Part shown: piece after piece, positions 10,764 to 44,462 of the stretch | How positions within the stretch are numbered: position 1 is the stretch's first letter | How the letters are laid out: each line of letters starts with the position of its first letter | Virus genome (UHGV): UHGV-1558314 | Origin: a virus | Length of the DNA stretch: 64,000 nt | Reading direction: 5' to 3' (one strand) | The notes under the pieces: generated by a model | What the model saw: the letters and a program-made list of their open reading frames with translations, nothing else | Database searches by the model: none | Told to the model about the DNA's origin: nothing | Translations under genes and position numbers: made by a program

Positions 10764-11822
10764 TTACTGCTTCAAGCCTGTGAACAGTTCATACTTGAAT
10801 GCAGGCCCTGCTGTGTAAGCCTCAAAGTAGAAGTCACCAATATTGATGCTTGCAATAGCGTCATCGACAGCTTTCTTGTAGCCTACACGTTCAATTGTCT
10901 GCTTATCGCATTTACGCCAATATGTGCTGTGCATCATAAGCGTGGGTGATGCAGCATAGTCTACTGCAAGCTGTTGTTTTGCAGTGTCAATGTGATGTTC
11001 ATAGATGTGCACATCATTGCCAGTCCAAATGAACTCTCTTGCCGCACAGTTAGTCAATGTTGCAACAATATGTGTAAGCAATGCATATGATGCGATATTG
11101 ATGGGCACACCAAGACACATGTCACAACTACGCTGAGTAAGCGCACAGTCAAGCCACATGCTTGGTACTTGAGCAGAATCAAGGCATTCTGCAGAACAAT
11201 CATGCACAAGCATGCTATCATTAGCAATCTGAATTCGTTCTTCAAGAGTCATTGGCTGACAATTGAACTGAAACAGCATATGACATGGCGGCAATGCCAT
11301 CTGAGACATTTGTGCAGGATTCCATGCAGACACGACTTTGTAGCGGCCAGTTGGATTGATGACAATGTCTTTAATGCAAGTTGCAAGTTGGTCATATCCA
11401 CTGTCATTGAAGTTGCGCCACTGATACCCATAGATAGGTCCGCAATCACCATACTCAGGCTTGCTGAATTTTGTGTTATGCAGTTCTGTGCACCAAGTTT
11501 CAAAGTCGACATCTTCACCTGGATGCAGTTTACGCCAATGACGATATGCATCCTGATGCCAGAACTTTGTAATACCAAGCGTGTCAAGCGTTTTTACATT
11601 TGTATCACCTGACATAAACCACAGAAGTTCTCCAATGACACCCTTGACAAACATTCTCTTGGATGTCAACAGTGGAAAGCCTTTACGCAAATCAAATCGC
11701 ATTGATTCTACAAACAATGACTTTGTGCGAGGCATGTTTTCACGAGCAGGCTCCTTAAATCTGCCATGTTCAATAACATTGTTAAGTACTCTCAAGTACT
11801 CAGTGTCGTGTTTGATATTCAT
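10764..11822 (-). CDS. thyA: thymidylate synthase (ThyA family, with insertion)
   Basis: FPLLTSKR, VVSAWNPAQ, catalytic ALPPCHMLFQF, and LGVPINIASYALL with Asn at the base-specificity position (uracil-specific). Confidence 0.8.
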   Translation of the reverse strand: MNIKHDTEYLRVLNNVIEHGRFKEPARENMPRTKSLFVESMRFDLRKGFPLLTSKRMFVKGVIGELLWFMSGDTNVKTLDTLGITKFWHQDAYRHWRKLHPGEDVDFETWCTELHNTKFSKPEYGDCGPIYGYQWRNFNDSGYDQLATCIKDIVINPTGRYKVVSAWNPAQMSQMALPPCHMLFQFNCQPMTLEERIQIANDSMLVHDCSAECLDSAQVPSMWLDCALTQRSCDMCLGVPINIASYALLTHIVATLTNCAAREFIWTGNDVHIYEHHIDTAKQQLAVDYAASPTLMMHSTYWRKCDKQTIERVGYKKAVDDAIASINIGDFYFEAYTAGPAFKYELFTGLKQ

Positions 11823-15047: not shown

Positions 15048-15929
15048 CTATCGTTTGAATTTGATGAAGTGTTCAGCATCGAGGCCCTCAAATACATACG
15101 GGTCAAGAGTTTCCCAGAAGTTTGAGTATGTCGTTGTCTTTGCAATGCTTGTTTGCTTTGACAAGTTCATATTTGGGTAGCCAAGCATTGCATAGTGTCG
15201 CTCATATATGTGCATTGACGTCGCATTATGCACATATGCGCCAAGCTTAAGACCAAGTTCATTTGCGACAAGTTCTTGCAACAAAGTGAATGCAAACTGG
15301 TCGTTGCAAAAGCCCCAAATGACATCATTGCTTCGCATGTATGTTGTCAAGTACAGCTTATCACCACGAACATTGAAAACAAGATTCAATGTGCATGGCA
15401 TGTCTTTGCCAGTGTAGTTTGCATATTGCGGCTCATAAATGCTAATAACTGCTCGTCTTGTGCATTCATGATTTCGCAAACGTTCAATGACATCTGCAAT
15501 CTGCTTGTGCCAAATTGCGCCATACTGTGAATTGACATTGACACCATCGTCGCTGAATTGCTTCCAACGAGGCAAATAACGTTCAATGCATTCAACTGCA
15601 GGATTGGCTGTCATGTACCACGCAAATTCTGCAGCAGCATTGAGCTTTTTCCATGGTCGTACGTCAATCTTGATTTGCCGCTGTGAAGGGTCCTGAATAA
15701 CTACAGACACATTCAGCAATTCTTTTGTTCGAGTCACTGTTTGTGCATTGTTGCCCTTTGATTCTACAAACTCACCTCTACAATGAAGTTCATACAAAAT
15801 TGAGCGAAATGCTTCTGTTGCAGTGTTTTCAATGATTGTCGTCTGTTGATAACATAAATTTGACGACAATGCTTCAGCATCATTGTACTTTATGCTGTCA
15901 TTGTCATAAGGTGAATTTTTTGTGTGCAT
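15048..15929 (-). CDS. deoxycytidylate 5-hydroxymethylase (T4 gp42-like, ThyA fold)
   Basis: Catalytic Cys in DMPCTLNLVF; YMRSNDVIWGFCNDQFAF closely resembles gp42 NMRSNDVVFGFRNDYAW, with Asp at the position equivalent to ThyA Asn177 / gp42 Asp179. Confidence 0.7.
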   Translation of the reverse strand: MHTKNSPYDNDSIKYNDAEALSSNLCYQQTTIIENTATEAFRSILYELHCRGEFVESKGNNAQTVTRTKELLNVSVVIQDPSQRQIKIDVRPWKKLNAAAEFAWYMTANPAVECIERYLPRWKQFSDDGVNVNSQYGAIWHKQIADVIERLRNHECTRRAVISIYEPQYANYTGKDMPCTLNLVFNVRGDKLYLTTYMRSNDVIWGFCNDQFAFTLLQELVANELGLKLGAYVHNATSMHIYERHYAMLGYPNMNLSKQTSIAKTTTYSNFWETLDPYVFEGLDAEHFIKFKR

Positions 15930-15953: not shown

Positions 15954-17048
15954 TCATACAACGACGGTATCTCGTTTGCAATCTGTTCTGTCGAATATCG
16001 AGCAACAATATGATGCAGATTGCTCTTTGATTGCAATAGCTTCGTCATTGTCAAGTGATGAAATACCATCTATGTATGCTTTTGTATTGCCAGCGATGTC
16101 ATCATTTGTTAGCAATGCTGCACGACGTTCAGTACCAAAGAAGCCAAAGCACAATTGACGCTGCAATGCTTCACGAGAAATCTTGTCATCAAACTCGGAT
16201 TTCATGTGTTGCATAAATTCGACAATATCATCAATGTCGCATTGAGTAAAGTCAATGTACAATTTATGCATGTACTTGAATCGTTTGTAGTCTGTTGCAA
16301 GAATTTCTGGGTGCACAATGAACAACGTCTTTTTGCTGTCTATTGGATTTGCAATGACTGACGCTTGAACATAATCAACAAGCACGCCAGATTCACGAAG
16401 TTGCTCAACTGTTTTGCCAAATATATGCCCAAACGTGTCATCAAACCACTTCAAGTATACTTCGTTGTCTTCATCTTTTGATGCGCCAACAATGTAAATC
16501 TCATTGACTCCAAGCGCTTTAAGACGAGTGTCAGATAGCATCGTGTTCAATTGATGCTGCACATACAGCATTGGGCTGCTATGCAAAACTGTTTTGACAA
16601 TCTCACAAGCAATGTCCATATATGCATAGTCAAGCTTTGCAGATTTTGACACATACACTGCACGTTGCTGCAATGGCTCAATTGCTGAGCATGTGGTCAC
16701 AAAGTTGCCAACACATTCTGCTACTGCAATGTCATGCAAGTCATCTGCAATGTACACAATACTTGACAAGTCATCAAATGTTTGAACAAGTTGCTGAAGC
16801 TTTGTTTTGTAATTGCAGAGCATCAATGACTTGATGTTGCAATTGCCAAGCATTGTCTTGATGAGTCGTTGACCTGCTTCAGTGCTGTCACCAGAAATGA
16901 CATGCACATCGCAGTCAAACCAGTTCAACATGTCGATTGCATGCCGAACGCCATATTGCATTTGTTTTGCGAACTTGCCAGATTCATTGAACAGCATTTC
17001 ACCTGACATAATGCCGTCAAAGTCACATACGATTTGAAGTCTGTCCAT
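15954..17048 (-). CDS. HAD-superfamily phosphatase domain protein with uncharacterised C-terminal domain
   Basis: N-terminal IVCDFDGIM matches the HAD motif I (D-x-D-G). Confidence 0.5.
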   Translation of the reverse strand: MDRLQIVCDFDGIMSGEMLFNESGKFAKQMQYGVRHAIDMLNWFDCDVHVISGDSTEAGQRLIKTMLGNCNIKSLMLCNYKTKLQQLVQTFDDLSSIVYIADDLHDIAVAECVGNFVTTCSAIEPLQQRAVYVSKSAKLDYAYMDIACEIVKTVLHSSPMLYVQHQLNTMLSDTRLKALGVNEIYIVGASKDEDNEVYLKWFDDTFGHIFGKTVEQLRESGVLVDYVQASVIANPIDSKKTLFIVHPEILATDYKRFKYMHKLYIDFTQCDIDDIVEFMQHMKSEFDDKISREALQRQLCFGFFGTERRAALLTNDDIAGNTKAYIDGISSLDNDEAIAIKEQSASYCCSIFDRTDCKRDTVVV

Positions 17049-17412: not shown

Positions 17413-20400
17413 TTAACAAATTGATGACGTGCCATCAGTATTTGCTACAACTGTCAATGCACTATCAAACTCATCTTGTTGCAATACATGGTCAACTATG
17501 AGTGTTTTGCGAATTGCAGAAAGCTTGGTAAGCAACTGCATCAACACTTGCTGATAATTGATATTGTTGACATCATGCTCAGCGCCAACAATCTGCCCAT
17601 TGCTAAGCTTGCCACTGATTTCGTCAATGAGCAAGATGTTGCCCACTTTGTTTAAGCGTTGAGTCAAAATGAGATGCACGATTGCAAGACCTGCGAAAGT
17701 TCCTTCCATGCCAGACATTTGACTTACACTTCGAATTGACTTCGAGCCCATCAAGTCAATCATCTTCAACACATTGTTGTCATTGATGTCAAAGAACACT
17801 CGGTAGTTCAATGAATCCAGCAAATCATTGAGCTGTGCATTCAGTGATGTTGCAATTGCTGCAAAGACATATGAAACTAAGCCTCGTTTGCTTGTGCACT
17901 GCTTATATGCATTGTACACCAAGTTTGCAATGTTCCACTTTTTCGAAGCTTGCAAATCTTTCTTGAGAGCTTCAATTCGCACATTGTTTGCTGATAAGTC
18001 TGCTTGCATTGTTGCAATTTCTGCATTGATGCTTAGCAGTTTTGAGTTCGCTTCAGTTTCATGCTGCTTAGCATCATCAATGTCGACTTGCAATGCAGCA
18101 TTTGTTGTAATATGCTGCTGAGTTTGCTGTGCATGTTCAAGTGCAAATGCTGCAGCAGTCTTATCAATCTCAAGTTGTTTAAGCGCAGACTCATATGTCG
18201 CTTTCTTATCATACTCTGCTTGAGCAATTTCAAGTTCAGCATTTATTGCAGCCAGTTCTGATTCTACTGTAGATTTTGATTGCAATACATCTTGCTTTGC
18301 TTGTTCAGCTTTACGTTTGATGTCTGCAAGTTGATTTGTGATATCTGCAATTTGCATTTTGACTGCTTCGACTTCAAGCAATGTTGCTGCAGTAGCCATT
18401 GGTTGTGCAATGAATGCATCTAAGTCTCTTTGCGCATTGACTACAGTTCTCTGCAAATCATTGAGCTTTTCTGCATGCATGTCATATGCTGCTTTGTGTG
18501 CTGGATTCAGTGCAGCAATTATTGCATTTGAATCTGTAACATCTATGATTGCTGCTTGCAGTTGCTCAATTTCATACTTCAAATTGCCAATTTTGACAAC
18601 ATTCTCATTGAATTGCTCTGTCTTTTGCGCACATTCTTGACGCAACTTAGCAAGCTCAGTTGACAACCACAGCTTGTATGCTTGTCCTGTGCCAGATGTC
18701 AAGTCATTTGTACATACAGGGCATTTGTCGTTTTCAAGTTGCTTTTGCTTGTCTATAACATTGTCGATGTTTGTTTTTGCAGCAGATATTTCTGTTCTAA
18801 GTGCATTTTGAACAGTGTTGATGTCTTCAATTTGCTTTTGCAAAGCATCTATTTTTGCCCGAGTGTTTGCATTGTACGACTTGCCAAGATTTATCAGCAC
18901 AGAATCAATGTGCTGCTTTGCTGCATCATATGCAAGCTTTGATTCATCAAGCTTTGTTCTGTACAATGACTCTGCATGCGCAACTTCTTTCTGCACTTTT
19001 GCAGATAGCTCATTCTGTTTTGTAAGCAGCTCAGCATATGTATTGTGCAGCTGTGAGCCAGATGCTATGACATTTGTGTATGCTGTATTAGCTTCATTGT
19101 CAATATTAGTGAGTTGCTGCTCAATCTGTGCTTTTGCTGTTTGCAACTTAGACATATCTTGCAATGCAAGTGCAGCAATGTCAAGCTCAACTTTGTGAAT
19201 CTTTGCAATGATGCCATCGATATTTGCTGTTGCATCTTCTATAGTTAAGATGTCTGCAGGAATTTGATGTAGTTTCTTTGAGAGCTCTTCTACTTTTGCA
19301 CGAGCTTTTGTAAGCTTCGCGGACCACTCTTTTTGATTATCTTGTCGTAACTGCAAAGAGTAATTGAGTTCATTGCAAGTTGTATTGAGAGACTCAAGTT
19401 CTGCTTTTATTGCAACATCAGTCAATGCGGGCTTACTAAGGCCATCAAACAATGCAGCCTTTGCAGCATCATTAGAATTGCCAAGCTGTACAAATGTATT
19501 GATGCCAAGAGTATCAAGTAGCCAGTCATTCAATGAATTTGAGTCCATTGCAATGATTTGGTCAAGTAGTGTCTGATTGATACAAACATATCGCGACAAT
19601 TCCCAGATAGAGCCAAAGATTGCATATAGCGTGTCTTTGATTTCATGCTGCGGCACTACGTAGTCATCTGACAATCTTACAAGCTGAACAGTCTCATTGA
19701 CTGCTGACACGTTATCTCGCCATGAGCCATCTGCATTTATTCGAGAACCTCGTTTGAATTTGCGTTCAAGTGTTCGAATCAATTTGTAGTGAACATTTTG
19801 ACCTGCTACTACATGCACAAAGACACAAGAAGCTTCAAGCTTATCATATGACTCATTGTCAATCAATTTGTCATTGAAGTATGTCAAAGCGTTCTGCTTT
19901 GTTGCTGCAGAAGACTGTTCAGCGTCAATAAAGCCAGTCAGCAGCCATTTGATAAGTCTGAAGATTGTAGTCTTGCCATTGCCATTGTTGCCTCTAACTT
20001 GTGTAAGCTGTGCAAGATTGTCAAAGCTGACATCAACATCTTTCAATGCCATGAACTGATTTGCTTTAACATTTTGAATGACATATTTTGCAACTTCAGT
20101 GTCAAAAGACAATTTATCAATTTGTTCATCAATCAATGACTTGAACATGTCAACAAACTGCTGAGCATCTTCAGTAGCAACTATGGCATTGCGTTCAATG
20201 TATGCATTGACCCAGTCAAGTGCAGCGTCTTTAAGCCATTCAGCAGTTTGAACCTTTTGCAGCAAATTGTCGCCATTTGCGTCTACAGCATTGATTGAAT
20301 CAATGACAGCAGAATCATACAGAATGTCAATTGCAGCAACAACATATGAACTTACAAGATTCTGTGCAATGCGCTCAACAATACCAGACAGTTCGGGCTT

Positions 20401-21339
20401 TGTGACCTTTGACTTGATTTTGATTTTATTGATGCGGCCAGGGTTGATGAGTGCAATCTTGTCTGTTTTGACATCATTATCAATTGTGATTGTATGATAA
20501 TGCACAAGCTGCTCAAGTGGATGCCACTCTACCACAATTCGCTTGTTGTCAATATCGATGTCAAGCAAGTTGTAGCCATGTTCTGCAGTACCATGCTGTA
20601 TTGCAGTGTCATTCAACAAATAGTCGCCTTCACCAAAATCTCTGACAATTGGCGAGCCGCAATATGTTAATGTCTTATCACCAGCAACCCATATTGCATG
20701 CTTATGAATGTCACCCATTGCAACAAAGTTGCTATTAAATTGCATTGCATCTATACGACTGTCATTGTCACCACGAACAATACAATCATCAAAGTTGACA
20801 CAATTCTTTACAGGGTCATGGAACAGCTCAATGACACACATTGATGACAATGCTGCAATCTGCGATTCATCAAGTGATGCCCAAGGCGAATATGTGCCAC
20901 CAGACCACTTCTCATTTTGAGCCCATACTGCAGCAGCAAAACCAGGTGCAAGCAGTTCAACTCTTGAACTGTTGATATACTTGATTCGCTTGTCATCAAT
21001 TGCAGTTACAAGCTTGTCAATGCTATCTGTCCACTGCATTTGTGAACCATCACCAGCATCAAATGTGTTATCACGTTGCTTCAAATCATGATTGCCAGCA
21101 GTAATGACAATTTGAAGCTTGTCATTGACTTCAAGCATGCCTTTGAGCAGCTTAACAAACAGCGACTCTTCAAGTGAATTGCTATTCCAATGCTCAAACA
21201 CGTCGCCGACAATGAATACAAACTCAACTGACTTTGCTTTGTCAATTAGTTGTTTGTTGATGTGCTCATATTCTACGAAACGTCGTAAATGACCTTGTCG
21301 AACATTATATTGAATGTCTGCTATGTGAAGTGCTTTCAT
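17413..21339 (-). CDS. fused Mre11/SbcD nuclease - Rad50/SbcC ATPase (1308 aa)
   Basis: N-terminal phosphoesterase motifs VFIVGDVFEHW, VITAGNHDL, GDIHKH; Walker A GNNGNGKTTIFRLIKWLL; coiled-coil with zinc hook DKCPVCTNDL; signature SGMEGTFAGLAIV; Walker B LLIDEISGKLS. One uninterrupted ORF. Confidence 0.75.
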   Translation of the reverse strand: MKALHIADIQYNVRQGHLRRFVEYEHINKQLIDKAKSVEFVFIVGDVFEHWNSNSLEESLFVKLLKGMLEVNDKLQIVITAGNHDLKQRDNTFDAGDGSQMQWTDSIDKLVTAIDDKRIKYINSSRVELLAPGFAAAVWAQNEKWSGGTYSPWASLDESQIAALSSMCVIELFHDPVKNCVNFDDCIVRGDNDSRIDAMQFNSNFVAMGDIHKHAIWVAGDKTLTYCGSPIVRDFGEGDYLLNDTAIQHGTAEHGYNLLDIDIDNKRIVVEWHPLEQLVHYHTITIDNDVKTDKIALINPGRINKIKIKSKVTKPELSGIVERIAQNLVSSYVVAAIDILYDSAVIDSINAVDANGDNLLQKVQTAEWLKDAALDWVNAYIERNAIVATEDAQQFVDMFKSLIDEQIDKLSFDTEVAKYVIQNVKANQFMALKDVDVSFDNLAQLTQVRGNNGNGKTTIFRLIKWLLTGFIDAEQSSAATKQNALTYFNDKLIDNESYDKLEASCVFVHVVAGQNVHYKLIRTLERKFKRGSRINADGSWRDNVSAVNETVQLVRLSDDYVVPQHEIKDTLYAIFGSIWELSRYVCINQTLLDQIIAMDSNSLNDWLLDTLGINTFVQLGNSNDAAKAALFDGLSKPALTDVAIKAELESLNTTCNELNYSLQLRQDNQKEWSAKLTKARAKVEELSKKLHQIPADILTIEDATANIDGIIAKIHKVELDIAALALQDMSKLQTAKAQIEQQLTNIDNEANTAYTNVIASGSQLHNTYAELLTKQNELSAKVQKEVAHAESLYRTKLDESKLAYDAAKQHIDSVLINLGKSYNANTRAKIDALQKQIEDINTVQNALRTEISAAKTNIDNVIDKQKQLENDKCPVCTNDLTSGTGQAYKLWLSTELAKLRQECAQKTEQFNENVVKIGNLKYEIEQLQAAIIDVTDSNAIIAALNPAHKAAYDMHAEKLNDLQRTVVNAQRDLDAFIAQPMATAATLLEVEAVKMQIADITNQLADIKRKAEQAKQDVLQSKSTVESELAAINAELEIAQAEYDKKATYESALKQLEIDKTAAAFALEHAQQTQQHITTNAALQVDIDDAKQHETEANSKLLSINAEIATMQADLSANNVRIEALKKDLQASKKWNIANLVYNAYKQCTSKRGLVSYVFAAIATSLNAQLNDLLDSLNYRVFFDINDNNVLKMIDLMGSKSIRSVSQMSGMEGTFAGLAIVHLILTQRLNKVGNILLIDEISGKLSNGQIVGAEHDVNNINYQQVLMQLLTKLSAIRKTLIVDHVLQQDEFDSALTVVANTDGTSSIC

Positions 21340-21341
21340 AT

Positions 21342-21358
21342 TCTAAATGAGATTTAGA
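21342..21358 (-). promoter_or_regulatory. palindromic leader element TCTAAATGAGATTTAGA just upstream of the Mre11-Rad50 start codon
   Basis: Same 17-bp palindrome as at 14388-14404, at -3 to -19 from the ATG. Confidence 0.5.
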
Positions 21359-21386
21359 TTATATGTTGATATTGTACAACATGCAA
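21358..21386 (-). promoter_or_regulatory. sigma-70-like promoter TTGCAT-N17-TATAAT with conserved TTGTACAA core
   Basis: Minus-sense TTGCATGTTGTACAATATCAACATATAAT, about 18 nt upstream of the ATG at 21339. Confidence 0.55.
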
Positions 21387-21418
21387 AATGCACTTGCATT
21401 TTGATACAACGTATGTCA

Positions 21419-21766
21419 TTATTTTGCAAGCATTTTGCTGATTGCATCTATCACAGTTTCACTGAGCAAGTAGTAGACAACGCTTATCAGCAATGATATC
21501 AGTACTGCAGCTGTGATAAATTGCAACGCATTCACAATTGCACGCACAAATGTTATCTGTGTGTTGTATGCAAGCACTATGCAGCATAGCACAATAATGA
21601 CACACCAGACTACAATTGCATATGCAGGCATCAATGAATTTGTCCATATGCAGTACAATACAGTAGTTAGCATCAAAAATGCTATTGCTCTGATGACTGA
21701 CACAATGATGTCTATGTAGAGCTTCATTACACGTAAATGAACTCTTGGCTTATGCGGTTTCATCAT
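21419..21766 (-). CDS. small membrane protein
   Basis: ORF 21419..21829 trimmed to internal Met; hydrophobic segments IIVSVIRAIAFLMLTTVLYCIW, AIVVWCVIIVLCCIVLAY, AAVLISLLISVVYYLL. Confidence 0.4.
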   Translation of the reverse strand: MMKPHKPRVHLRVMKLYIDIIVSVIRAIAFLMLTTVLYCIWTNSLMPAYAIVVWCVIIVLCCIVLAYNTQITFVRAIVNALQFITAAVLISLLISVVYYLLSETVIDAISKMLAK

Positions 21767-23001
21767 GACTTTATGTACAATTCTGCAAGTTGTCTGGTGT
21801 ACAATCGTGGATTGTGATATGCTTTCCAATATGCAGTAGACTTTATTGCAGCAAGAATCTCATCATAATGTTTGACTGCTTTTGCTACAACTTCATCAAG
21901 TACATGCAAATCTTCTACACTAACAAGCAGCCATTTTTCTACAATGTCAATGAATTCTTGATTGCAATTAAAGCCATATTTGTAGTTGCAAGTGTCAAGT
22001 ACAAGTGGGATGCAGTCATTTGTCAGTGCTTCAAAAAATCTACGAAGACTGAAACAATTCTCATCATATGATGGAATGCTTAATGTAAACTTGGCAGTCT
22101 TGATGAGTTGCAAATACTCTTCGTATGGAATCAGAGGACCATTGTGCTTCCACTGATTGTTATGTCGTCTTGTTGTGTACTTGAACAAAAACTTTGAACT
22201 GTCAAGCTCACAAAGATGGTCCATGCGTAAAATGTAGTTATAGCGGTCTCTTCTATCAGGCCAACTGTCAGTCATTGCAAACACAAAGTCTCTTTGCTTG
22301 TCACATTTTGCTGACATACCTCTATGCTGACACATGCAGTACCAATATTGCTGCGATGGACTGAACTCGAACTTTGAGTGATGCTCACTGCCATCTTTGC
22401 ATTGTTGAACGTAAATATTGTCAGGCACAAAGTGAAAGTAGAAATGTCGAATTTGCAAGCCGTCAATGTAGTCAAGCTTATGCTGCAATGGGTCCTCACA
22501 GAAATTGTAACACTGAATGCGTTTTGCTGCAGCATACTCAGCAACTATGAATGTGCACACCCATTGCAATGCGATGTCTTCACTCTTCAAAAAGTCAACA
22601 AGTGGCTCATTTGGATGCGCTTTGCATTCATTGAACATTTTGTACCACTTGCATTGCTCCATGTCATACTTGGAGACTGTATTGCCATTAAAAAATGACA
22701 CAGTATCAATTTTGAATGCCTCAAGTTGTTTATGCACAATGTCGATTGCTTGTGCATATGTGACAGTCTCATCAGACATTATTTGTGCAAACTTGATTGG
22801 ATGCGCATGCAAATTTGCAATTGTGTCTGCTGACATTTTGCGCTGTGTATGATAATCGACATACAAAAACTGACACTTGTCTGTAAGCAATTCAAGCATT
22901 GCTACAGATTTCCATCGAATTGCTTGAAAGAAATTGAAGTGCGCAGTTTGAAAAATGAGATGCGTAGGCTTGTCAGAATGAGTCAAAGTTTGCATGGACA
23001 A
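21763..23001 (-). CDS. putative DNA glycosyltransferase, GT-B-like (paralog A1)
   Basis: Paralogous to 26026..27582 (shared EDPLQHKL[D/N]YID, SPSQQYWY, IPSYDENCFSLRRFFEALTNDCIPLV). The C-terminal S-L-R-x-F-x-E...P-L-V patch resembles the catalytic region of phage beta-glucosyltransferase. Family assignment is from memory. Confidence 0.45.
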   Translation of the reverse strand: MSMQTLTHSDKPTHLIFQTAHFNFFQAIRWKSVAMLELLTDKCQFLYVDYHTQRKMSADTIANLHAHPIKFAQIMSDETVTYAQAIDIVHKQLEAFKIDTVSFFNGNTVSKYDMEQCKWYKMFNECKAHPNEPLVDFLKSEDIALQWVCTFIVAEYAAAKRIQCYNFCEDPLQHKLDYIDGLQIRHFYFHFVPDNIYVQQCKDGSEHHSKFEFSPSQQYWYCMCQHRGMSAKCDKQRDFVFAMTDSWPDRRDRYNYILRMDHLCELDSSKFLFKYTTRRHNNQWKHNGPLIPYEEYLQLIKTAKFTLSIPSYDENCFSLRRFFEALTNDCIPLVLDTCNYKYGFNCNQEFIDIVEKWLLVSVEDLHVLDEVVAKAVKHYDEILAAIKSTAYWKAYHNPRLYTRQLAELYIKS

Positions 23002-24158
23002 ATGTCGCAGTTATGTTGATGTTTGTGTTTATTTATGAAGTCATATGTCACTGCAAAAAAGTGCTTTGCAATGTCATATCGAGTTTTCAAATATGCTGCT
23101 TGTCGTTCACAAAATGCTGCATAAATATCTGGGTGTTGTTTGAATGCTGCAATGCGTTGCTGTACTTGTTCTGCAGAATGCACATATGACACTTTGCTCA
23201 AATATACATCATCTGCAAATAATCGTTTGTCTTTGTCAACTGCGCAATCAACAAAAGTTGCAATTCGTGCAACAATTGCTTCACCGACACGATTTGGTAT
23301 TAGCCCATATTGCTCATATTGCTGTTCGCCGATAGCAATGTGTGCTGCTGCATATGACATTGCATATGGCACACTATAAAATGGCACACTAAAATCAAAT
23401 GAACAATTTGACTGCAGCAATTGTGTTTGTGCATCAGACAATCTACTTGTCAAGTTGCCTGTATATTTGTGCTCACCAAGAAAACTTGAGCGACAGCCTG
23501 AATCTACATAGTATCGAATGACTTTGTTTATGCGACTGTCAGATAGCATATGCCAATCTCTTGTAGCATATATCAAGTCTACTGTTTTTGCGCCAATATG
23601 ACGAGGCTCTATCGCAACATTGCTGTATGTTGGCAGCATAAACAATGGCAGCCATTTGACATTGTTGAACACTGAATGCTCATTTGACAAATTCATGCAC
23701 TGGCTAAGTTCAAGTACTGGCTCATCATACACGCCATGTAGCTCAACTCTGCCTGCATGCACAAAGTTGACACGCTTAAATGGAAATCGCATATCAGTGC
23801 AAACTGTCATTCTTGCTGCAATAGACATTCGCCACATAGCATGCAGCTTAACAACTGCTTCTGCTTGAGGTCGAGGCAACATATTTAGCAAATCAATCCA
23901 GCCGCCCCACAAAATCCAAACATCATTTGAACAGATGTTGAATTGCAAACTCAATATGTCTTCTACTGTTGTAGCAATAATGTCATGCCCATTGATGCTT
24001 GCAAGGTGTTTTCGTTGATTTGCAATAATAATGACTTGACTGAATGGAGACTCTGGAAATGACACAAGCGCTTTTGCAAACAACACGGGTTCTTGCGACA
24101 CCAAGTTGTTTGAGTATGGGTCGATTATGCAATCAAGCTTGTGTATGAAGAGTCTCAT
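22983..24158 (-). CDS. hypothetical DNA-modification-associated protein (paralog B1)
   Basis: Paralogous to 27579..28745 (similar N-termini MRLFIHKLD / MSKLFILKFD; shared L[L/I]PNR[W/V]-x-E-x-[V/I] near C-terminus). Sits immediately upstream of A1, as B2 does of A2. Confidence 0.4.
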   Translation of the reverse strand: MRLFIHKLDCIIDPYSNNLVSQEPVLFAKALVSFPESPFSQVIIIANQRKHLASINGHDIIATTVEDILSLQFNICSNDVWILWGGWIDLLNMLPRPQAEAVVKLHAMWRMSIAARMTVCTDMRFPFKRVNFVHAGRVELHGVYDEPVLELSQCMNLSNEHSVFNNVKWLPLFMLPTYSNVAIEPRHIGAKTVDLIYATRDWHMLSDSRINKVIRYYVDSGCRSSFLGEHKYTGNLTSRLSDAQTQLLQSNCSFDFSVPFYSVPYAMSYAAAHIAIGEQQYEQYGLIPNRVGEAIVARIATFVDCAVDKDKRLFADDVYLSKVSYVHSAEQVQQRIAAFKQHPDIYAAFCERQAAYLKTRYDIAKHFFAVTYDFINKHKHQHNCDICPCKL

Positions 24159-26025: not shown

Positions 26026-27582
26026 TCATTGCACTTCTACGAATGGCTCTTTCAACACAAAGCTGTCACCATTGCAACATGCGGCTGAGCCATCGTCTGC
26101 ATCAAGTGCGCATGACATATCAGACTTGCAGAACTTGCAATATGAACATGACCATGCATGACTCATAAAGTTGTTTGCTTCACAAATTACACAGCGCTCA
26201 TGTGAAAGTGTATTGTCGCAATTGTCACAAGACTTCTTGATTGGCACATCTTTATTGATATATGCAAGATGCAATGCAATATCATACACAAAGTCACCCG
26301 TATATTGCTGAATGAAATCAGTGTGCCACAACTCTTTTAACAATTGTGTATGTCTATATGGCTGAACAATGTCTTCAAGATGCTGCAAGTCATCATCGCT
26401 AACCATGAGCTTCTTAATGACAAACTGTTTGAACTGCGGCCATCTGTCAAACATATAGAGTTTGCATGAGTTGTGCACAAGTGGAACACAGCCAAGCACA
26501 ATGCTTTCACAGAATCTACGCAAACTAAAACAGTTTGCATCATATGACGGCACAATCAATGTGAATCTGCTATGCTTGATGAGTTCAAGGTATGTGTCAT
26601 ATGGCAGTAGCTTGTCTGACAATGGCTGCTGTTGCTTGTCCCTGCTGAAAAATCTGAACACAATGCCTTTATCAATTGCATCTTGATTGTGCAGATGCAT
26701 GAGTTTGTTGATGAGTTCTGTGCGTTCAGTTTTGTCTCGCCAAGTATTCGTCAATGCAAATGCAAAATTCAGTCGCTTGTCATCAAACGTCGCTTCAATG
26801 TCATCCCAAGTTTTGTCATGCAAATACCAGTATTGCTGTGATGGGCACCATCCATAATATGCAATAGCGTCTTGTTCTGCTGTAACGTCATACACATATG
26901 CAGAATTGTATTCAAGGCCAAGCCCTTTGACATTGTTGCAGTCATGAAAGTACCAATGCTGCACTTTGAATATCTTTGATGCACTGAATGCGCTTTCATA
27001 TGGCCCTGAATAGCGATAGTCAATGTAATTGAGCTTGTGCTGCAATGGGTCTTCGACAAAGTTGTTTATGACTGTGCCTTGTTGTTTGCCATTAGTCTTG
27101 CGAGCATTCAATGCAATATTGTACTGCATAATGACTGACAGCATCTCATACACTACATACATGAGTGCTTTGTAGACTGAGCCTGCTGCGTCAATTAGCG
27201 GCAAATCACGTTTGACTGATGCAGTACCAAATGTCTTGCAATATGCAGAAAATGTATCAAGTTCTGCCTGTTGAAATGAATTGCATGCGCCATTGAATAT
27301 GTTGAATGTTGCAATGTAGCTCATATTACAAGATGTCATTGACATATCAAGACGCTTCATAATGTCAGCAATGCGACATTGAGCAAAATCTGACACATCA
27401 ACATATTTGACATGATGACCTGATGCAGTCAAGCCAACTGCGACTTCTTTCATTTGTGGCACAAAGCCTACTACAATGAACAAGTCATCTTTGTTTGCTC
27501 GTTCAAACATTGCTGCACTTTTCCAAGTCAATGAATTGAAAAAGTCTATGTAGCCAGTCTGTGTGATGATATGTGTTCTCAT
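26026..27582 (-). CDS. putative DNA glycosyltransferase, GT-B-like (paralog A2) with Cys-rich C-terminal tail
   Basis: Paralog of 21763..23001 (VEDPLQHKLNYID, CPSQQYWY, VPSYDANCFSLRRFCESIVLGCVPLV). Extra C-terminal Cys cluster (CDNCDN...CVICE...CSYCKFCK). Confidence 0.45.
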   Translation of the reverse strand: MRTHIITQTGYIDFFNSLTWKSAAMFERANKDDLFIVVGFVPQMKEVAVGLTASGHHVKYVDVSDFAQCRIADIMKRLDMSMTSCNMSYIATFNIFNGACNSFQQAELDTFSAYCKTFGTASVKRDLPLIDAAGSVYKALMYVVYEMLSVIMQYNIALNARKTNGKQQGTVINNFVEDPLQHKLNYIDYRYSGPYESAFSASKIFKVQHWYFHDCNNVKGLGLEYNSAYVYDVTAEQDAIAYYGWCPSQQYWYLHDKTWDDIEATFDDKRLNFAFALTNTWRDKTERTELINKLMHLHNQDAIDKGIVFRFFSRDKQQQPLSDKLLPYDTYLELIKHSRFTLIVPSYDANCFSLRRFCESIVLGCVPLVHNSCKLYMFDRWPQFKQFVIKKLMVSDDDLQHLEDIVQPYRHTQLLKELWHTDFIQQYTGDFVYDIALHLAYINKDVPIKKSCDNCDNTLSHERCVICEANNFMSHAWSCSYCKFCKSDMSCALDADDGSAACCNGDSFVLKEPFVEVQ

Positions 27583-28745
27583 GATTTGAATGTTTGTTCA
27601 AGAATTGTGTAACACTGCACAATCATTACTGCAAGAGCTTTTTGCTGTGCTTGTTTGCAATCATCAAAATTTGTGGGCGCAGTGCGTACGCGTGTTTTGC
27701 TATTAAGTGTCGCAAATGTCGCGTAGTCATCGAAGCCTATAATGTCAGCAAATAGGGCAATTGGCTTATAATCTACAAGTATGTTGCAGCAATTTGCAAG
27801 TACGCCTTCAACCCATCGATTTGGCAGCAAGTCTGCTTGCACATACAATGAATCACCAACTACAAGATTGTATGCCGACTGTGACATTACACGCGGCATT
27901 GCATCGTATGTGACTTTGTATTTAAGTGTAAAGTTTGGTGCTGCTGATTTAATCGCAGACAAAATTGTGTCATCAAGATATGATGTTATGAGACACGTGT
28001 CGCACATATGTATGACAAATTGTTCAATCACACTTCTACGATACTCGTCAAGATATGTGAAACCTGCACAACTTGCACAGCATGCATATTGCTGCTTTAT
28101 GTCAGCAAAGCTACGCACATGAGCTTCAATTGCATTTTGCATCGTTACTTGTAGTTTAAGCAATCTTGGCTCTTTAATGTATTGAAGCTTCAATGCATTG
28201 ACTGCTGCAATGATTTGCAATGGGGCAAACACACATTGAGACTCATCAAGCCAAGCGTATTTGAGATTTTTGTGCTGGCATAGATGCGTAATGTTGTCTT
28301 TTTGTGATTCTAAGTACTCTTTGTAATTGTGCAATCGCTTTGTCAATGTGCATTCTTTATCAAAGTCGAATCGCAAATCAGTTGTTAGTGTAAATTTGCG
28401 AGCGTTTGACAAACACCATGTTTTGAATGCATTCCACAGAACATCTTGCTGAAATTCTGAGCAATGTTCAAGAGCAGCCTTTGAACCTTGCCAGAATATT
28501 GCGCAATCATCTGATTTTGCGCACTTCAGCATATCTTGCCATGCATGTATGTTATTGATAATATGCACATTATCATACACAAGCTCATCAAGTATTGCAT
28601 GCTTGTTCTCAGGGTCGCCAAACACATATACAGCATCAAACATTGTCTGCACAAAACCTGCAAATGCAATAGGTTCTGTATGCTTAAGATGCTGTACGTC
28701 TGAACGCACGCATGTGTCAAATTTCAAAATGAATAGTTTGCTCAT
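27579..28745 (-). CDS. hypothetical DNA-modification-associated protein (paralog B2)
   Basis: Paralog of 22983..24158; same position relative to its A partner. Confidence 0.4.
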   Translation of the reverse strand: MSKLFILKFDTCVRSDVQHLKHTEPIAFAGFVQTMFDAVYVFGDPENKHAILDELVYDNVHIINNIHAWQDMLKCAKSDDCAIFWQGSKAALEHCSEFQQDVLWNAFKTWCLSNARKFTLTTDLRFDFDKECTLTKRLHNYKEYLESQKDNITHLCQHKNLKYAWLDESQCVFAPLQIIAAVNALKLQYIKEPRLLKLQVTMQNAIEAHVRSFADIKQQYACCASCAGFTYLDEYRRSVIEQFVIHMCDTCLITSYLDDTILSAIKSAAPNFTLKYKVTYDAMPRVMSQSAYNLVVGDSLYVQADLLPNRWVEGVLANCCNILVDYKPIALFADIIGFDDYATFATLNSKTRVRTAPTNFDDCKQAQQKALAVMIVQCYTILEQTFKS

Positions 28746-29442
28746 ATACTTTGCAATTATCTATTACATGTTGATATTGTACTTCATCTATGATGTGATT
28801 TGCAATGACACCATATGAGGCGTCATACATTGGCATCTTCTCATATGACAATGCTGCGTCAAGATTGCATATCACATAATTGCAATGCACAATGTCATCT
28901 ACATTGTCACTAACTGCTACGATATTGACACACTTTGCAAGAAATGCATCATCAAAGTCTACTTGATTGCATGCAACCTCATAATCTGCTGCGCTTCTTG
29001 GGTACCAATATAACTCAATGCCAGCACTACTAAGTAGTCGCAAGCCATCTATGTGATGATACAAGTCAACAAAATGCACTTGCTTAACGCCTGCTTGCAA
29101 AATAAGCTTTGCGCAATCAATGCATGGACTGTATGTTACATACAGCACTGCGTCATTTGCGGTCGCATTGCCATATTTGCACAGCTTCATCAATGCGTTT
29201 GATTCTGCATGCAAAACTTCTTTGTTGGTTTTGATACCTGCCGATGTTGCATGCTCACAACAATTTGACATGCCAGTTGGCATGCCATTGTAGCCATCTG
29301 AAATTATGCAACCATTTTTTACAAGCAATGCGCCAACTTTTGCTCGCTGAGCATATGAATTTAATGACCAAAGCTCAGCCATTTTAAGATATATGAGATT
29401 TCGTTGAAACTGCTTTGTTTCAGACCAAGTTAGCCATTTCAT
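28717..29442 (-). CDS. dCMP deaminase (zinc-dependent cytidine/deoxycytidylate deaminase family)
   Basis: Zinc-ligand motifs LHAESNAL (H-A-E) and YSPCIDCAKL (P-C-x-x-C). Confidence 0.8.
   Translation of the reverse strand: MKWLTWSETKQFQRNLIYLKMAELWSLNSYAQRAKVGALLVKNGCIISDGYNGMPTGMSNCCEHATSAGIKTNKEVLHAESNALMKLCKYGNATANDAVLYVTYSPCIDCAKLILQAGVKQVHFVDLYHHIDGLRLLSSAGIELYWYPRSAADYEVACNQVDFDDAFLAKCVNIVAVSDNVDDIVHCNYVICNLDAALSYEKMPMYDASYGVIANHIIDEVQYQHVIDNCKVYEQTIHFEI
28763..28791 (-). promoter_or_regulatory. partial copy of conserved promoter motif inside the 3' end of the dCMP deaminase gene
   Basis: Minus-sense GAAGTACAATATCAACATGTAAT, about 18 nt upstream of the B2 start codon at 28745. Confidence 0.35.
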
Positions 29443-43696: not shown

Positions 43697-43749
43697 AGGC
43701 ATGCGCATATACGTGCGTGACAATGCTGATAACATTGTTAATGGGCTAA
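43633..43749 (+). other. short leader ORF (MKTTQLWFERQQSIAGG...) containing a G7 tract, in the +1 frame relative to downstream gene 43701..44333
   Basis: ATG at 43633; G7 at 43677-43683. The gene A frame is open from 43659 through the G tract, so a -1 shift or one extra G fuses leader and gene. Confidence 0.5.
43677..43683 (+). repeat. homopolymeric G7 tract (candidate slippage site)
   Basis: cgcgggggggctc read directly. Confidence 0.9.
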
Positions 43750-44333
43750 CTTGCTATTTGCACTGTATTGAAACAGGTCGAACACTTCAAAGAGACTTGC
43801 ACACAAGCAATAATGGTGATGGCGTCACATTTTACATAACTGGTGATGACTATAAGCAATTAGTCGGCTCAACAAAAGACGCACAATTTTATCTTATTGA
43901 CACGCCTGATGCTGCAGATATGTCTTGGTCATCTGCAGCATTTACACTTAGATATGGCGCAGATATAGTTAACAACACACTAAATGTCAATATTGAAGCG
44001 TTCAAATCATGCGAAGTAACAATAACTAACAGTGGCAATACATGCAGTTGCACCGCAATGCTTGAATCTGCATTGCCAGTGGCAATTAAACTGTCAACAA
44101 TTTGCAATACATCAGTAGCATCTAATGTCGATGTGTCAGTTAACATAGCTGCAAATAGCTTGACTGCTAATTTTAGAGTTGGCAATAGCTTATCTGCAAA
44201 ATTGACGCATGTCGGCATATGGTCTATTGCTAATGCTTCTTATGTTTCACCAATATATGAGGGTGCTATAATTGTGAAAACACTGAACGACATATTTCAC
44301 GTGTTCATAACAGATAAGACAACACTTGGCTAA
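43701..44333 (+). CDS. cassette gene A (210 aa), candidate variable fibre or receptor-binding protein
   Basis: ORF track; first plus-strand gene after the strand switch; starts 5 nt after the IR. Confidence 0.5.
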   Translation: MRIYVRDNADNIVNGLTCYLHCIETGRTLQRDLHTSNNGDGVTFYITGDDYKQLVGSTKDAQFYLIDTPDAADMSWSSAAFTLRYGADIVNNTLNVNIEAFKSCEVTITNSGNTCSCTAMLESALPVAIKLSTICNTSVASNVDVSVNIAANSLTANFRVGNSLSAKLTHVGIWSIANASYVSPIYEGAIIVKTLNDIFHVFITDKTTLG

Positions 44334-44368
44334 GTGTACATATCTTACAACATTCAAACATATAGCAT

Positions 44369-44425
44369 ATGAAAACTCCACAATTTTGGTTTGAGCGTCA
44401 ACAAGGGCTAGCGGGGGGGCTCTAA
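44369..44425 (+). other. leader ORF copy B (MKTPQFWFERQQGLAGGL, 18 aa) with G7 tract
   Basis: Diverged at nucleotide level from the IR copy but conserved as peptide. Stop immediately after the G tract, while the gene B frame opens immediately before it. Confidence 0.5.
44413..44419 (+). repeat. homopolymeric G7 tract
   Basis: gcgggggggctc read directly. Confidence 0.9.
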
Positions 44426-44462
44426 ATTAGTCTACCTGCAACTTGTTATTGGCGACGCTTCG

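What the first reader, a model, noticed from the sequence alone, without database searches (positions are those of the whole stretch)
17413..21339. Mre11 nuclease and Rad50 ATPase fused in one 1308-aa polypeptide
Phosphoesterase motifs (GDVFEHW, GNHD, GDIHKH) occupy the N-terminal 340 residues and are followed without interruption by a complete Rad50/SbcC (Walker A, long coiled coil with CPVC zinc hook, SGME signature, Walker B). T4 gp47/gp46 and bacterial SbcD/SbcC are separate subunits, so a covalent fusion with fixed 1:1 stoichiometry is unusual.
Basis: partly seen in the sequence, partly recalled or inferred. Interest (0 to 1): 0.55.

Follow-up and report, generated by a model that had tools for sequence, protein, structure and literature searches.

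The report
Fused Mre11-Rad50 phage repair enzyme
A large phage encodes its DNA-end-processing nuclease (Mre11/SbcD) and ATPase (Rad50/SbcC) as one real, conserved 1308-residue protein, but this fusion has been known since 2011 and is shared by a large family of phage and giant-virus proteins, so it is ordinary.

Summary
Window 17413-21339 (-) is one uninterrupted 1308-aa ORF. It reads Mre11/SbcD-like nuclease and capping domain (aa 1-345), a predicted helix-loop-helix (366-408), an ~8-residue linker, then a complete Rad50/SbcC: Walker A, ~230/265-aa antiparallel coiled coil, CPVC hook, SGME signature, Walker B, H-loop.

It is not a frameshift artefact:
- The identical protein was found on three contigs, from at least two separate sources: a 175-kb ENA assembly contig and a Logan assembly of run ERR1136818.
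- A 97%-identical IMG/VR copy gives dN/dS 0.07, with no amino-acid change in the linker/HLH.
- 144 retrieved homologs, mostly representatives of separate 50%-identity clusters, carry all three parts in one chain.

The novelty claim fails. Yoshida, Claverie and Ogata (2011) described natural Mre11/Rad50 fusions in Mimivirus R555, a Bacillus phage, plasmids and abundant phage-like metagenome sequences. PHROG 35725 covers the fused protein end to end. Phages PAU, PTm1, PTm5, pT24 and MA9V-1/2 all carry it, annotated as "metallo-phosphoesterase".

The most likely function is a single-chain M2R2-equivalent end-resection and tethering machine for recombination-dependent replication and repair.

One point appears undescribed. 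Two canonical His metal ligands are replaced family-wide: motif I DxH to DxQ, and motif V GH to GD. Verdict: new member of a known kind, low interest.

The parts
17413..21339 (-). Whole fused Mre11-Rad50 gene (1308 codons plus stop at 17413-17415)
   Evidence: Single ORF. Full-length match to phrog_35725, E 7e-113. Identical protein on three contigs from at least two separate sources. dN/dS 0.071 against the 97%-identical IMG/VR copy.
20635..21339 (-). Calcineurin-like phosphoesterase (nuclease) domain, aa 1-235. Motif I D8-I-Q10, II G45-D46, III G82-N83-H84-D85, IV H174, V/VI G209-D210-I211-H212.
   Evidence: Pfam Metallophos above cutoff. These residues are invariant in 18-28 homologs. AF2 model pLDDT mostly above 90. 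The top 50 PDB fold matches are all Mre11/SbcD.
20305..20634 (-). Capping domain, aa 236-345 (beta-rich, with the invariant GEG 236-238 and H254)
   Evidence: AF2 secondary structure. Foldseek alignments of 360-450 columns to SbcD/Mre11 structures that include the capping domain, e.g. 7dog_A and 1ii7_A.
20092..20304 (-). Flexible linker (aa 346-358), two helices 366-383 and 389-408 (candidate Rad50-binding helix-loop-helix), and a short ~8-residue connector (aa 409-416, SFDTEVAK) to Rad50
   Evidence: Low pLDDT at 346-354, then two helices. Zero nonsynonymous and 7 synonymous codon differences against L004. The connector length agrees with the 9-12 residues predicted for such fusions in PMC3175470. 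Binding to the coiled-coil base is inferred, not shown.
19420..20091 (-). Rad50/SbcC ATPase N-lobe, aa 417-640, with Walker A G450-T458 and a Q-loop candidate Q589
   Evidence: Pfam AAA_23 E 2.7e-10. N452, G455 and K456 are invariant. Weak PDB sequence match to Rad50 3qf7 at aa 426-469.
18736..19419 (-). Ascending coiled-coil arm, aa 641-868 (with a predicted interruption at about 689-730)
   Evidence: AF2 long helices, model residues 311-537. Ala/Leu/Lys/Gln/Glu-rich, with only 4 Pro and 6 Gly over aa 641-1148 (both arms and hook). phrog_77 SbcC-like and NCBIfam Rad50 matches over this region.
18688..18735 (-). Zinc hook apex, aa 869-884, with C873-P-V-C876 at 18712-18723
   Evidence: C873 and C876 are invariant in 18 homologs. 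A CxxC lies between the ATPase lobes in 143 of 144 family members. Pfam Rad50_zn_hook matches only weakly (E 0.12). The model shows a helix-turn-helix apex with no SMC hinge domain.
17896..18687 (-). Descending coiled-coil arm, aa 885-1148
   Evidence: AF2 helices, model residues 554-818.
17416..17895 (-). Rad50/SbcC ATPase C-lobe, aa 1149-1308: signature S1209-G-M-E, Walker B L1236-L-I-D-E1240, D-loop region 1239-1243, H-loop H1284
   Evidence: S1209 is nearly invariant; G1210, M1211, D1239, E1240, G1243 and H1284 are invariant. One nonsynonymous against 17 synonymous codon changes.
21340..21418 (-). 79-nt upstream intergenic region with the best promoter-like site of the region (TTTGCA-18-TATAAT, 21387 to 21358). 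No Shine-Dalgarno-like sequence before the ATG.
   Evidence: This is a consensus match only; the total number of promoter-like sites in the region is not above the shuffled expectation.

Best explanation
The gene encodes a genuine single-chain Mre11-Rad50 (SbcD-SbcC) enzyme of a roughly 175-kb contractile-tailed phage. It belongs to the established family of natural Mre11/Rad50 fusion proteins (phrog_35725; fusions of the Mimivirus R555 type). The N-terminal two-metal phosphoesterase with its capping domain is the nuclease. Two helices after the capping domain probably dock on the base of the Rad50 coiled coil, as the Mre11 helix-loop-helix does in the two-subunit complexes. An ~8-residue connector then leads into a complete Rad50 ABC-ATPase, whose two lobes are separated by a ~230/265-residue antiparallel coiled coil capped by a CxxC zinc hook. 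Two chains would dimerise through the nuclease domains, through ATP-dependent head engagement and through the zinc hooks. That reproduces the M2R2 architecture from a homodimer. By analogy with T4 gp46/gp47 and E. coli SbcCD, ATP binding and hydrolysis would clamp DNA ends and license the nuclease to trim ends and hairpins. This would generate 3' single strands for recombination-dependent replication and double-strand-break repair of the phage genome, while the hooks tether DNA molecules. Shown here: the ORF, the domain order, motif conservation, purifying selection, predicted folds and family-wide fusion. Inferred: dimerisation, HLH docking, nuclease and ATPase activity, and the role in recombination-dependent replication.
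For: One ORF of 1308 aa. Pfam Metallophos and AAA_23 pass their cutoffs, and phrog_35725 matches end to end with E 7e-113. Full-length homologs from 97% down to ~20% identity, all 1284-1401 aa. An exhaustive phmmer search with aa 1-700 found 200 cluster representatives; nearly all listed are 1100-1480 aa and match continuously across the junction. 144 of 172 retrieved proteins carry nuclease, N-lobe and C-lobe, and 143 of those have CxxC. Catalytic, Walker A/B, signature, H-loop and hook residues are invariant. The AF2 model of aa 1-430 (pLDDT 88) matches only Mre11/SbcD in its top 50 PDB hits. The model of aa 331-1308 (pLDDT 82) gives an SMC/Rad50 head with a long coiled coil and a hook apex, with Rad50 7zr1 at ranks 2-3. 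The closest viral folds are the fused proteins of pT24, PTm1 and PAU, then giant-virus fused proteins, ahead of stand-alone gp47/SbcD. dN/dS is 0.071 with no amino-acid change in the linker/HLH. The identical protein was assembled on three contigs from at least two separate sources. There is no in-frame start with an upstream ribosome-binding site that could give a separate complete Rad50. No second Mre11- or Rad50-like ORF lies in the 64-kb window. Neighbours are replication and recombination genes: helicases, a gp32-like SSB and a polymerase exonuclease subunit. The literature precedent and the compatible ~28 Å linker geometry are in PMC3175470. SbcC/SbcD are described as a near-universal core of jumbo phages in PMC7824862.
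Against: No biochemical or structural data exist for any member of this fused family; the best PDB sequence hit has E 0.03. Two canonical His metal ligands are substituted (Q10, D210), so nuclease activity is assumed, not shown. NCBIfam Rad50 and SbcD models score far below their curated cutoffs, and the Rad50 zinc-hook Pfam model matches only at E 0.12. Only 64 kb of a ~175-kb genome was searched for additional SbcCD-like genes.
Confidence: 0.88

Rival explanations
1. Sequencing or assembly artefact: a frameshift or missing stop codon merged separate mre11-like and rad50-like genes.
For: None was found. Separate genes are the norm in T4 and in bacteria (PMC3175470).
Against: The identical 1308-aa protein occurs on three contigs, including a 175-kb ENA assembly contig and a separate Logan assembly of run ERR1136818. 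A 97%-identical IMG/VR contig has the same uninterrupted ORF with dN/dS 0.07. Isolate phage genomes annotate a single CDS of 1301-1326 aa. 144 homologs are fused. Alignments are colinear through the junction.
Confidence: 0.01
2. The nuclease domain is catalytically dead. Motif I His is replaced by Gln and motif V His by Asp, and the protein acts only as an ATP-driven DNA tether or clamp.
For: Two of the canonical metal-ligand histidines of Mre11/SbcD are replaced. There is no experimental activity data.
Against: All other ligands (D8, D46, N83, H174, H212) and the catalytic H84 are invariant in the 28-sequence alignment at 16-99% identity. That pattern is not expected for a decayed site. Gln and Asp side chains can ligate metal ions (general coordination chemistry). 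Q and H alternate at motif I among family members. The Asp at motif V is shared with Mimivirus R555.
Confidence: 0.08
3. The main role is not phage recombination or replication. Instead the protein acts in conflict: degrading host DNA, or working as an SMC-type defence or counter-defence module of the Lamassu LmuB or Wadjet JetC kind.
For: PADLOC LmuB models match the Rad50 half (E 7e-16). Fold search also returns JetC and LmuB-containing complexes. From established knowledge, T4 gp46/47 also contribute to host DNA breakdown.
Against: The LmuB and JetC hits cover only the generic SMC head and coiled coil, and none covers the nuclease domain. No LmuA or JetABD partners were seen among the window ORFs scanned, and none appears in the gene-call Pfam annotations of L005, which span window 7414-31339. 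The gene is conserved across a whole clade of lytic phages next to replication genes. Host DNA degradation would be an added activity of the same machine, not a different mechanism.
Confidence: 0.05

Closest known systems
phrog_35725 proteins of the PAU/PTm1 phage group: Sphingomonas phage PAU gp288 (YP_007006895), Tenacibaculum phages PTm1 gp075, PTm5 and pT24, Chryseobacterium phages MA9V-1 ORF70 and MA9V-2
   Same: Same end-to-end architecture and length (1301-1326 aa). Full-length alignment at 23-26% identity. Same DxQ / GDxxE / GNHD / GDIH nuclease motifs (PAU has GHIH), and the same Walker A, CxxC hook, SGM[EQ] signature and Walker B. Best structural matches in BFVD.
   Different: Only ~25% identical. 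The window phage (~175 kb, 40% GC, uncultured) belongs to a different lineage; its nearest relatives are metagenomic (51-34% identity). No conserved gene order around the gene. These proteins are annotated only as 'metallo-phosphoesterase', 'DNA repair' or 'DNA repair exonuclease'.
Mimivirus R555 and other giant-virus Mre11/Rad50 fusion proteins (Yoshida, Claverie and Ogata 2011, PMC3175470)
   Same: N-terminal Mre11-like and C-terminal Rad50-like domains in one ~1200-1400-aa chain. Long, cellular-size coiled coil. Asp in place of P. furiosus Mre11 His206 (motif V). A short connector compatible with cis docking. Giant-virus fused proteins (Tupanvirus, Harvfovirus, Yasminevirus, Tetraselmis virus 1 and others) are the next-best viral structural matches after the phage orthologs.
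   Different: R555 keeps D-x-H in motif I and has GDxxH in motif II; this protein has D-x-Q and GDxxE. Structure-based identity in the nuclease domain is only 14-19%. The hosts are eukaryotes. A common fused ancestor is suggested by shared motifs and fold ranking but was not tested by phylogeny here.
T4 gp47/gp46 and E. coli SbcD/SbcC (canonical two-subunit Mre11-Rad50)
   Same: Same two enzymatic modules, the same fold for the nuclease and capping domains (E. coli SbcD 6s6v_B is the top PDB hit), the same ABC-ATPase motifs and zinc hook, and presumably the same M2R2 working assembly and role in end resection.
   Different: They are separate polypeptides held together by the HLH-to-coiled-coil contact. 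They have canonical DxH and GH ligands. T4 gp46 has a much shorter coiled coil (stated in PMC3175470). Sequence similarity is marginal: PDB phmmer E 0.03-0.5, and NCBIfam scores are far below cutoff.
Bacillus phage 0305phi8-36 A7KV18 (769 aa), the first phage fusion reported
   Same: A phage-encoded SbcD-SbcC fusion; it appears among the BFVD fold matches (rank 49).
   Different: It lacks one P-loop ATPase segment and the capping/HLH region. The window protein is a complete fusion.

Membership tests
Natural Mre11/Rad50 (SbcD/SbcC) fusion proteins sensu Yoshida et al. 2011 | Mre11-like phosphoesterase and Rad50-like ABC ATPase in one polypeptide, in the order N-Mre11 then Rad50-C | tested here: met
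   Single ORF. Metallophos at aa 1-95 and AAA_23 at 427-690. Fold matches for both halves.
Natural Mre11/Rad50 (SbcD/SbcC) fusion proteins sensu Yoshida et al. 2011 | The region between the domains has the length of the capping and HLH domains, plus a short connector compatible with cis docking (~9-12 residues) | tested here: met
   Capping domain 236-345, helices 366-408 and an ~8-residue connector before the first Rad50 strand at ~417. Docking itself was not testable.
phrog_35725 (phage 'metallo-phosphoesterase', 1376-position profile) | Significant end-to-end match to the family profile | tested here: met
   E 7.1e-113, 379 bits, protein 2-1304 against profile 8-1366 of 1376.
Mre11/SbcD nuclease | Motif I D-x-H (two metal ligands) | tested here: not met
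   The sequence is D8-I-Q10. Asp is kept and His is replaced by Gln. Q is invariant in the 16 closest homologs and present in at least 112 of 144 family members; a minority have H. The domain is therefore a divergent branch, not a canonical SbcD.
Mre11/SbcD nuclease | Motifs II (GD), III (GNH[D/E]), IV (H) and VI (H of GxxH) | tested here: met
   G45-D46, G82-N83-H84-D85, H174 and H212 are invariant in 28 sequences.
Mre11/SbcD nuclease | Motif V G-H (metal ligand, P. furiosus His206) | tested here: not met
   The sequence is G209-D210. Asp is invariant in the 28-sequence set, and the same substitution is reported for Mimivirus R555.
Mre11/SbcD nuclease | Phosphoesterase fold plus capping domain | tested here: met
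   AF2 pLDDT 88. All top 50 Foldseek PDB hits are Mre11/SbcD (E down to 2e-13, TM normalised to target 0.55-0.69).
Mre11/SbcD nuclease | C-terminal helix-loop-helix that binds the Rad50 coiled-coil base | tested here: inconclusive
   Two helices (366-383, 389-408) are predicted at the right position and are under strong constraint (0 nonsynonymous changes). Contacts could not be examined because no coordinates were returned.
Mre11/SbcD nuclease | Metal-dependent exo- and endonuclease activity | not testable with these tools
   Requires biochemistry.
Rad50/SbcC ATPase | Walker A, Walker B, D-loop and H-loop, split between the N- and C-terminal lobes | tested here: met
   GNNGNGKTT 450-458, LLIDE 1236-1240, DEISG 1239-1243 and DH 1283-1284. 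The key residues are invariant.
Rad50/SbcC ATPase | ABC signature motif (canonical S-G-G-[EQ]) | tested here: inconclusive
   The sequence is S1209-G-M-E. G1210 and M1211 are invariant and S1209 nearly so, but the third position is Met, not Gly.
Rad50/SbcC ATPase | Long antiparallel coiled coil with a CxxC zinc hook at the apex, and no SMC hinge | tested here: met
   Helical arms 641-867 and 884-1148 with the apex at 868-883 in the model. C873 and C876 are invariant. CxxC is present in 143 of 144 members. The Pfam hook model matches only at E 0.12.
Rad50/SbcC ATPase | Curated family-level score (NCBIfam Rad50/SbcC, SbcD) | tested here: not met
   Rad50_Sulf scores 52 bits against a cutoff of 1000; sbcd TIGR00619 scores 36 bits against 77.65. 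The protein is too divergent for equivalog assignment.
Lamassu LmuB / Wadjet JetC defence SMC proteins (considered and rejected) | Partner genes (LmuA/LmuC or JetA/B/D) and a defence-island context | tested here: not met
   Only generic SMC similarity was found. The phage replication-gene context has no such partners among the ORFs scanned.

The most novel reading that the evidence does not exclude
The fused family has a remodelled two-metal centre. His is replaced by Gln in motif I in most members and in all of the closest relatives, and by Asp in motif V in nearly all. This could give it a different metal preference or cleavage specificity from every characterised Mre11/SbcD. Covalent fusion may be what allows it, for example a nuclease that is active only when clamped in cis by its own ATPase, possibly adapted to the modified DNA suggested by the flanking thymidylate-synthase-like, deaminase and glycosyltransferase-like genes. 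No member has been characterised biochemically or structurally, so the family would be a natural single-chain model of the Mre11-Rad50 machine.
Probability: 0.15. Interest if true: 0.4.

Novelty: new member of a known kind. Interest (0 to 1): 0.18.

Why it matters
It matters little as a discovery. Natural Mre11-Rad50 fusions have been in the literature since 2011, and this clade is already in RefSeq, UniProt/BFVD and PHROGs. The practical value is in annotation: proteins labelled 'metallo-phosphoesterase' in PAU/PTm1-like phages and their metagenomic relatives are complete single-chain SbcDC machines, probably the only end-resection complex these phages encode. The family, with at least 144 diverged members retrieved here, could also serve structural biology as a naturally tethered M2R2 system. 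Its conserved DxQ and GD metal-ligand variants are an untested biochemical question.

Tried and rejected
1. Megablast of the gene against 50,697 phage records found no near-identical deposited genome.
2. A frameshift or artefact was rejected.
3. I looked for an internal translation start that could yield a separate Rad50. The only in-frame ATG, GTG or TTG codons near the junction (aa 398, 402, 410, 430, 432) lack a ribosome-binding site. They either precede the Rad50 start within the HLH or would delete the first Rad50 strand.
4. I searched the 64-kb window for a second Mre11- or Rad50-like gene with phmmer and a family HMM. Only weak coiled-coil noise turned up.
5. A defence-system reading (PADLOC) gave only generic SMC/LmuB similarity.
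6. Short hits in the exhaustive search were checked as possible unfused relatives. Most are truncated fragments ending in or just after the Rad50 Walker A. Only P0216 (417 aa, canonical DLH and GDIFD, basic tail) looks like a complete stand-alone Mre11-like protein.
7. I tried to read model coordinates to measure HLH-to-coiled-coil contacts, but none were available.
8. Literature searches for other descriptions of natural fusions found only Yoshida et al. 2011. The first version of one search failed on a syntax error.
9. Cluster look-up of distant fused proteins gave no organism names, only JGI's 'SbcCD ATPase subunit/predicted phosphodiesterase'.
10. I ran no further search on retrieving R555 itself. 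The link to giant-virus fusions therefore rests on fold ranking and shared motifs.

Full report
**Observation.** The window contains a single ATG-initiated ORF of 1308 codons on the minus strand at exactly 17413-21339.
- GDVFEH at aa 45-50
- GNHD at 82-85
- GDIHKH at 209-214
- Walker A GNNGNGKTT at 450-458
- CPVC at 873-876
- SGMEG at 1209-1213
- Walker B LLIDE at 1236-1240

An H-loop (VDHV, 1282-1285) is also present. Pfam Metallophos and AAA_23 both pass their curated cutoffs.

**Is the fusion real?** Four independent lines say yes.
- The identical 1308-aa protein is encoded on three contigs. These include a 175,395-bp ENA assembly contig and a separate Logan assembly of run ERR1136818.
- An IMG/VR contig of 174,628 bp carries a 97%-identical, equally uninterrupted copy. 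Codon comparison gives dS 0.186, dN 0.013 and dN/dS 0.071. The linker/HLH segment (aa 346-416) has seven synonymous and zero nonsynonymous codon differences.
- Word-indexed and exhaustive protein searches return full-length relatives of 1284-1401 aa, from 97% down to about 20% identity. The exhaustive search found 200 representatives of 50%-identity clusters. Nearly all those listed are 1100-1480 aa and align continuously across the junction. Re-scoring with separate HMMs for the nuclease, the Rad50 N-lobe and the Rad50 C-lobe shows all three parts in 144 of 172 retrieved proteins (1048-1477 aa). A CxxC lies between the lobes in 143 of those 144. Most shorter hits are truncated fragments; several stop right at the Rad50 Walker A.
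- No in-frame start codon with a ribosome-binding site could yield a separate complete Rad50.

**Anatomy.** AlphaFold2 models were built with a 28-sequence family alignment.
- The model of aa 1-430 has mean pLDDT 88. It shows a phosphoesterase core (aa 1-235), a beta-rich capping domain (236-345), a disordered stretch (346-358) and helices at 366-383 and 389-407.
- The model of aa 331-1308 has mean pLDDT 82. It shows the same two helices, an ~8-residue connector (SFDTEVAK) and the first Rad50 strand at about aa 417.
- After the N-lobe (to ~640) comes an ascending helical arm (641-867, interrupted around 689-730). A short apex (868-883) carries CPVC. A descending arm (884-1148) leads to the C-lobe.

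Foldseek of the N-terminal model against the PDB returns only Mre11/SbcD chains in the top 50. E. coli SbcD in the SbcCD head complex is first, at E 2e-13. The C-terminal model returns SMC-superfamily ATPases, with Chaetomium Rad50 at ranks 2-3. A hook rather than a hinge at the apex places it with Rad50/SbcC. The connector length agrees with the 9-12 residues that Yoshida et al. calculated would bridge the ~28 Å between the Mre11 C-terminus and the Rad50 N-terminus in the Thermotoga complex.

**Conservation.** In 18 full-length homologs the following are invariant or nearly so:
- Nuclease half: D8, Q10, G45-D46, G82-N83-H84-D85, H174, G209-(D210)-I211-H212, G236-E237-G238 and H254.
- ATPase half: N452, G455, K456, (T457), C873, C876, (S1209)-G1210-M1211, D1239-E1240, G1243 and H1284.

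Two canonical histidine metal ligands of Mre11/SbcD are replaced.
- Motif I is D-x-Q instead of D-x-H. Q is found in all 16 closest sequences and in at least 112 of 144 family members, with H in a minority.
- Motif V is G-D instead of G-H. Asp is invariant in the 28-sequence set.

The more distant ~1050-1250-aa marine fused proteins carry GDxxH in motif II and GDIH in motif V. That is the combination the 2011 paper reports for Mimivirus R555. All other ligands and the catalytic His84 are invariant, and Gln and Asp can both ligate metals. I therefore read the site as a functional variant, not a dead one, but this is inference.

**Context.** The window is phage DNA.
- Structural genes include a baseplate wedge and a head-closure protein.
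- Replication genes include two helicases, a gp32-like SSB and a polymerase exonuclease subunit.
- Nearly every gene is on the minus strand.
- The fused gene is flanked by a thymidylate-synthase-like gene and a glucosyltransferase-like gene.
- No second Mre11- or Rad50-like ORF is present in the 64 kb.
- A 79-nt intergenic region upstream holds the best promoter-like match of the region, and there is no Shine-Dalgarno sequence.

**Comparison with what is known.** It is met.
- PHROG family 35725 is a 1376-position profile that matches the protein end to end (E 7e-113).
- tblastn against deposited phages finds full-length single-CDS orthologs at ~26% identity in Chryseobacterium phages MA9V-1/-2 and Tenacibaculum phages PTm1, PTm5 and pT24, and a C-terminal match to Sphingomonas phage PAU gp288, which aligns over its full length. 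They are annotated 'metallo-phosphoesterase', 'DNA repair' or 'DNA repair exonuclease'.
- Yoshida, Claverie and Ogata (Virol J 2011, PMC3175470) explicitly described natural Mre11/Rad50 fusions. Their examples were Mimivirus R555 (1351 aa), Bacillus phage 0305phi8-36, plasmids, some eukaryotes and abundant homologs in aquatic viral-fraction metagenomes. They argued that many of those homologs come from phages and that the fusion is sterically compatible with the known complex.
- In BFVD the nuclease model's best matches are the pT24, PTm1 and PAU fused proteins. Next come fused proteins of giant viruses (Tupanvirus, Pyramimonas orientalis virus, Harvfovirus, Yasminevirus, Tetraselmis virus 1, Catovirus). 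All of these rank ahead of stand-alone phage gp47/SbcD.
- Iyer et al. 2021 list SbcC/SbcD as a practically universal jumbo-phage core.
- Further literature searches found no other discussion of natural fusions, and none of the DxQ variant.

**Mechanism (inferred).** A homodimer of the fused chain would reproduce the M2R2 heterotetramer of canonical Mre11-Rad50. The 'fixed 1:1 stoichiometry' is therefore the native stoichiometry, made covalent. By analogy with T4 gp46/gp47 and E. coli SbcCD, ATP-driven head engagement would clamp DNA ends and gate the nuclease. This would produce the 3' single strands needed for recombination-dependent replication and break repair, with zinc-hook-mediated tethering over about 30 nm. 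Fusion guarantees co-expression and assembly, and it eases horizontal transfer, as Yoshida et al. argued.

**Rivals.**
- An artefact is excluded.
- A catalytically dead nuclease is unlikely, given the invariance of the remaining active-site residues.
- A defence-type SMC role is supported only by generic SMC similarity to LmuB/JetC and has no partner genes.

**Verdict.** It is a new, divergent member of an already described and already catalogued kind. The residual novelty is the family-wide DxQ / G-D metal-ligand variant and the lack of any biochemical or structural characterisation of these single-chain enzymes. Interest is low (0.18).

Noticed in passing
window 21304-21321 (aa 7-12) and 20698-20715 (aa 209-214): Motif I of the nuclease is D-I-Q instead of the canonical D-x-H, and motif V is G-D instead of G-H. 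Q10 is invariant in the 16 closest homologs and present in at least 112 of 144 family members. The effect on metal use or activity is unknown.
   Followed up: partly
window 10764-11822, 15048-15929, 15954-17048, 22983-24158, 26026-27582, 28717-29442 (all minus strand): This is a possible DNA-hypermodification gene set around the fusion gene. It includes two thymidylate-synthase-family genes, a dCMP-deaminase-family gene, a 364-aa protein with an N-terminal DFDG (HAD-like) motif, a weak beta-glucosyltransferase-like protein and a weak GT47-like protein.
   Followed up: no
window 48167-52495 (-): A 1442-aa ORF, the largest in the window, has no PHROG match at E <= 0.001. It lies next to head-closure and baseplate-like genes and is probably a structural protein.
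   Followed up: no
window 21419-21829 (-): A 136-aa TTG-start ORF with hydrophobic, membrane-protein-like sequence fills most of the 423-nt gap upstream of the fusion gene. It was not called as a gene in the public assembly (L005).
   Followed up: no
window 21340-21400 (-): There is no Shine-Dalgarno-like sequence before the ATG of the fusion gene. A TTTGCA-18-TATAAT promoter-like site lies at 21387 to 21358. Lack of SD would fit a Bacteroidota-type host like those of the related isolates, but the host is unknown.
   Followed up: no
protein P0216 (417 aa, sequence): This is the only retrieved relative that looks like a complete stand-alone Mre11-like protein. It has canonical DLH and GDIFD motifs but the family's GDIH motif V, and it ends in a Lys/Pro/Ala-rich basic tail instead of Rad50. 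It is a possible unfused cousin, useful for dating the fusion.
   Followed up: partly
L007 14070-15983 (contig ena:ERZ27320162:k141_353438): In a 178-kb relative, the fused gene (P0009) is immediately followed by an NAD-dependent DNA ligase gene, with a DEAD-box helicase upstream. The neighbours differ from those in the window, so gene order around the fusion gene is not conserved.
   Followed up: no
whole window: Of 67 ORFs kept by a simple greedy (longest-first, non-overlapping) ORF selection, 63 are on the minus strand; the four plus-strand ones lie at 405-1212 and 43701-44891.
   Followed up: no
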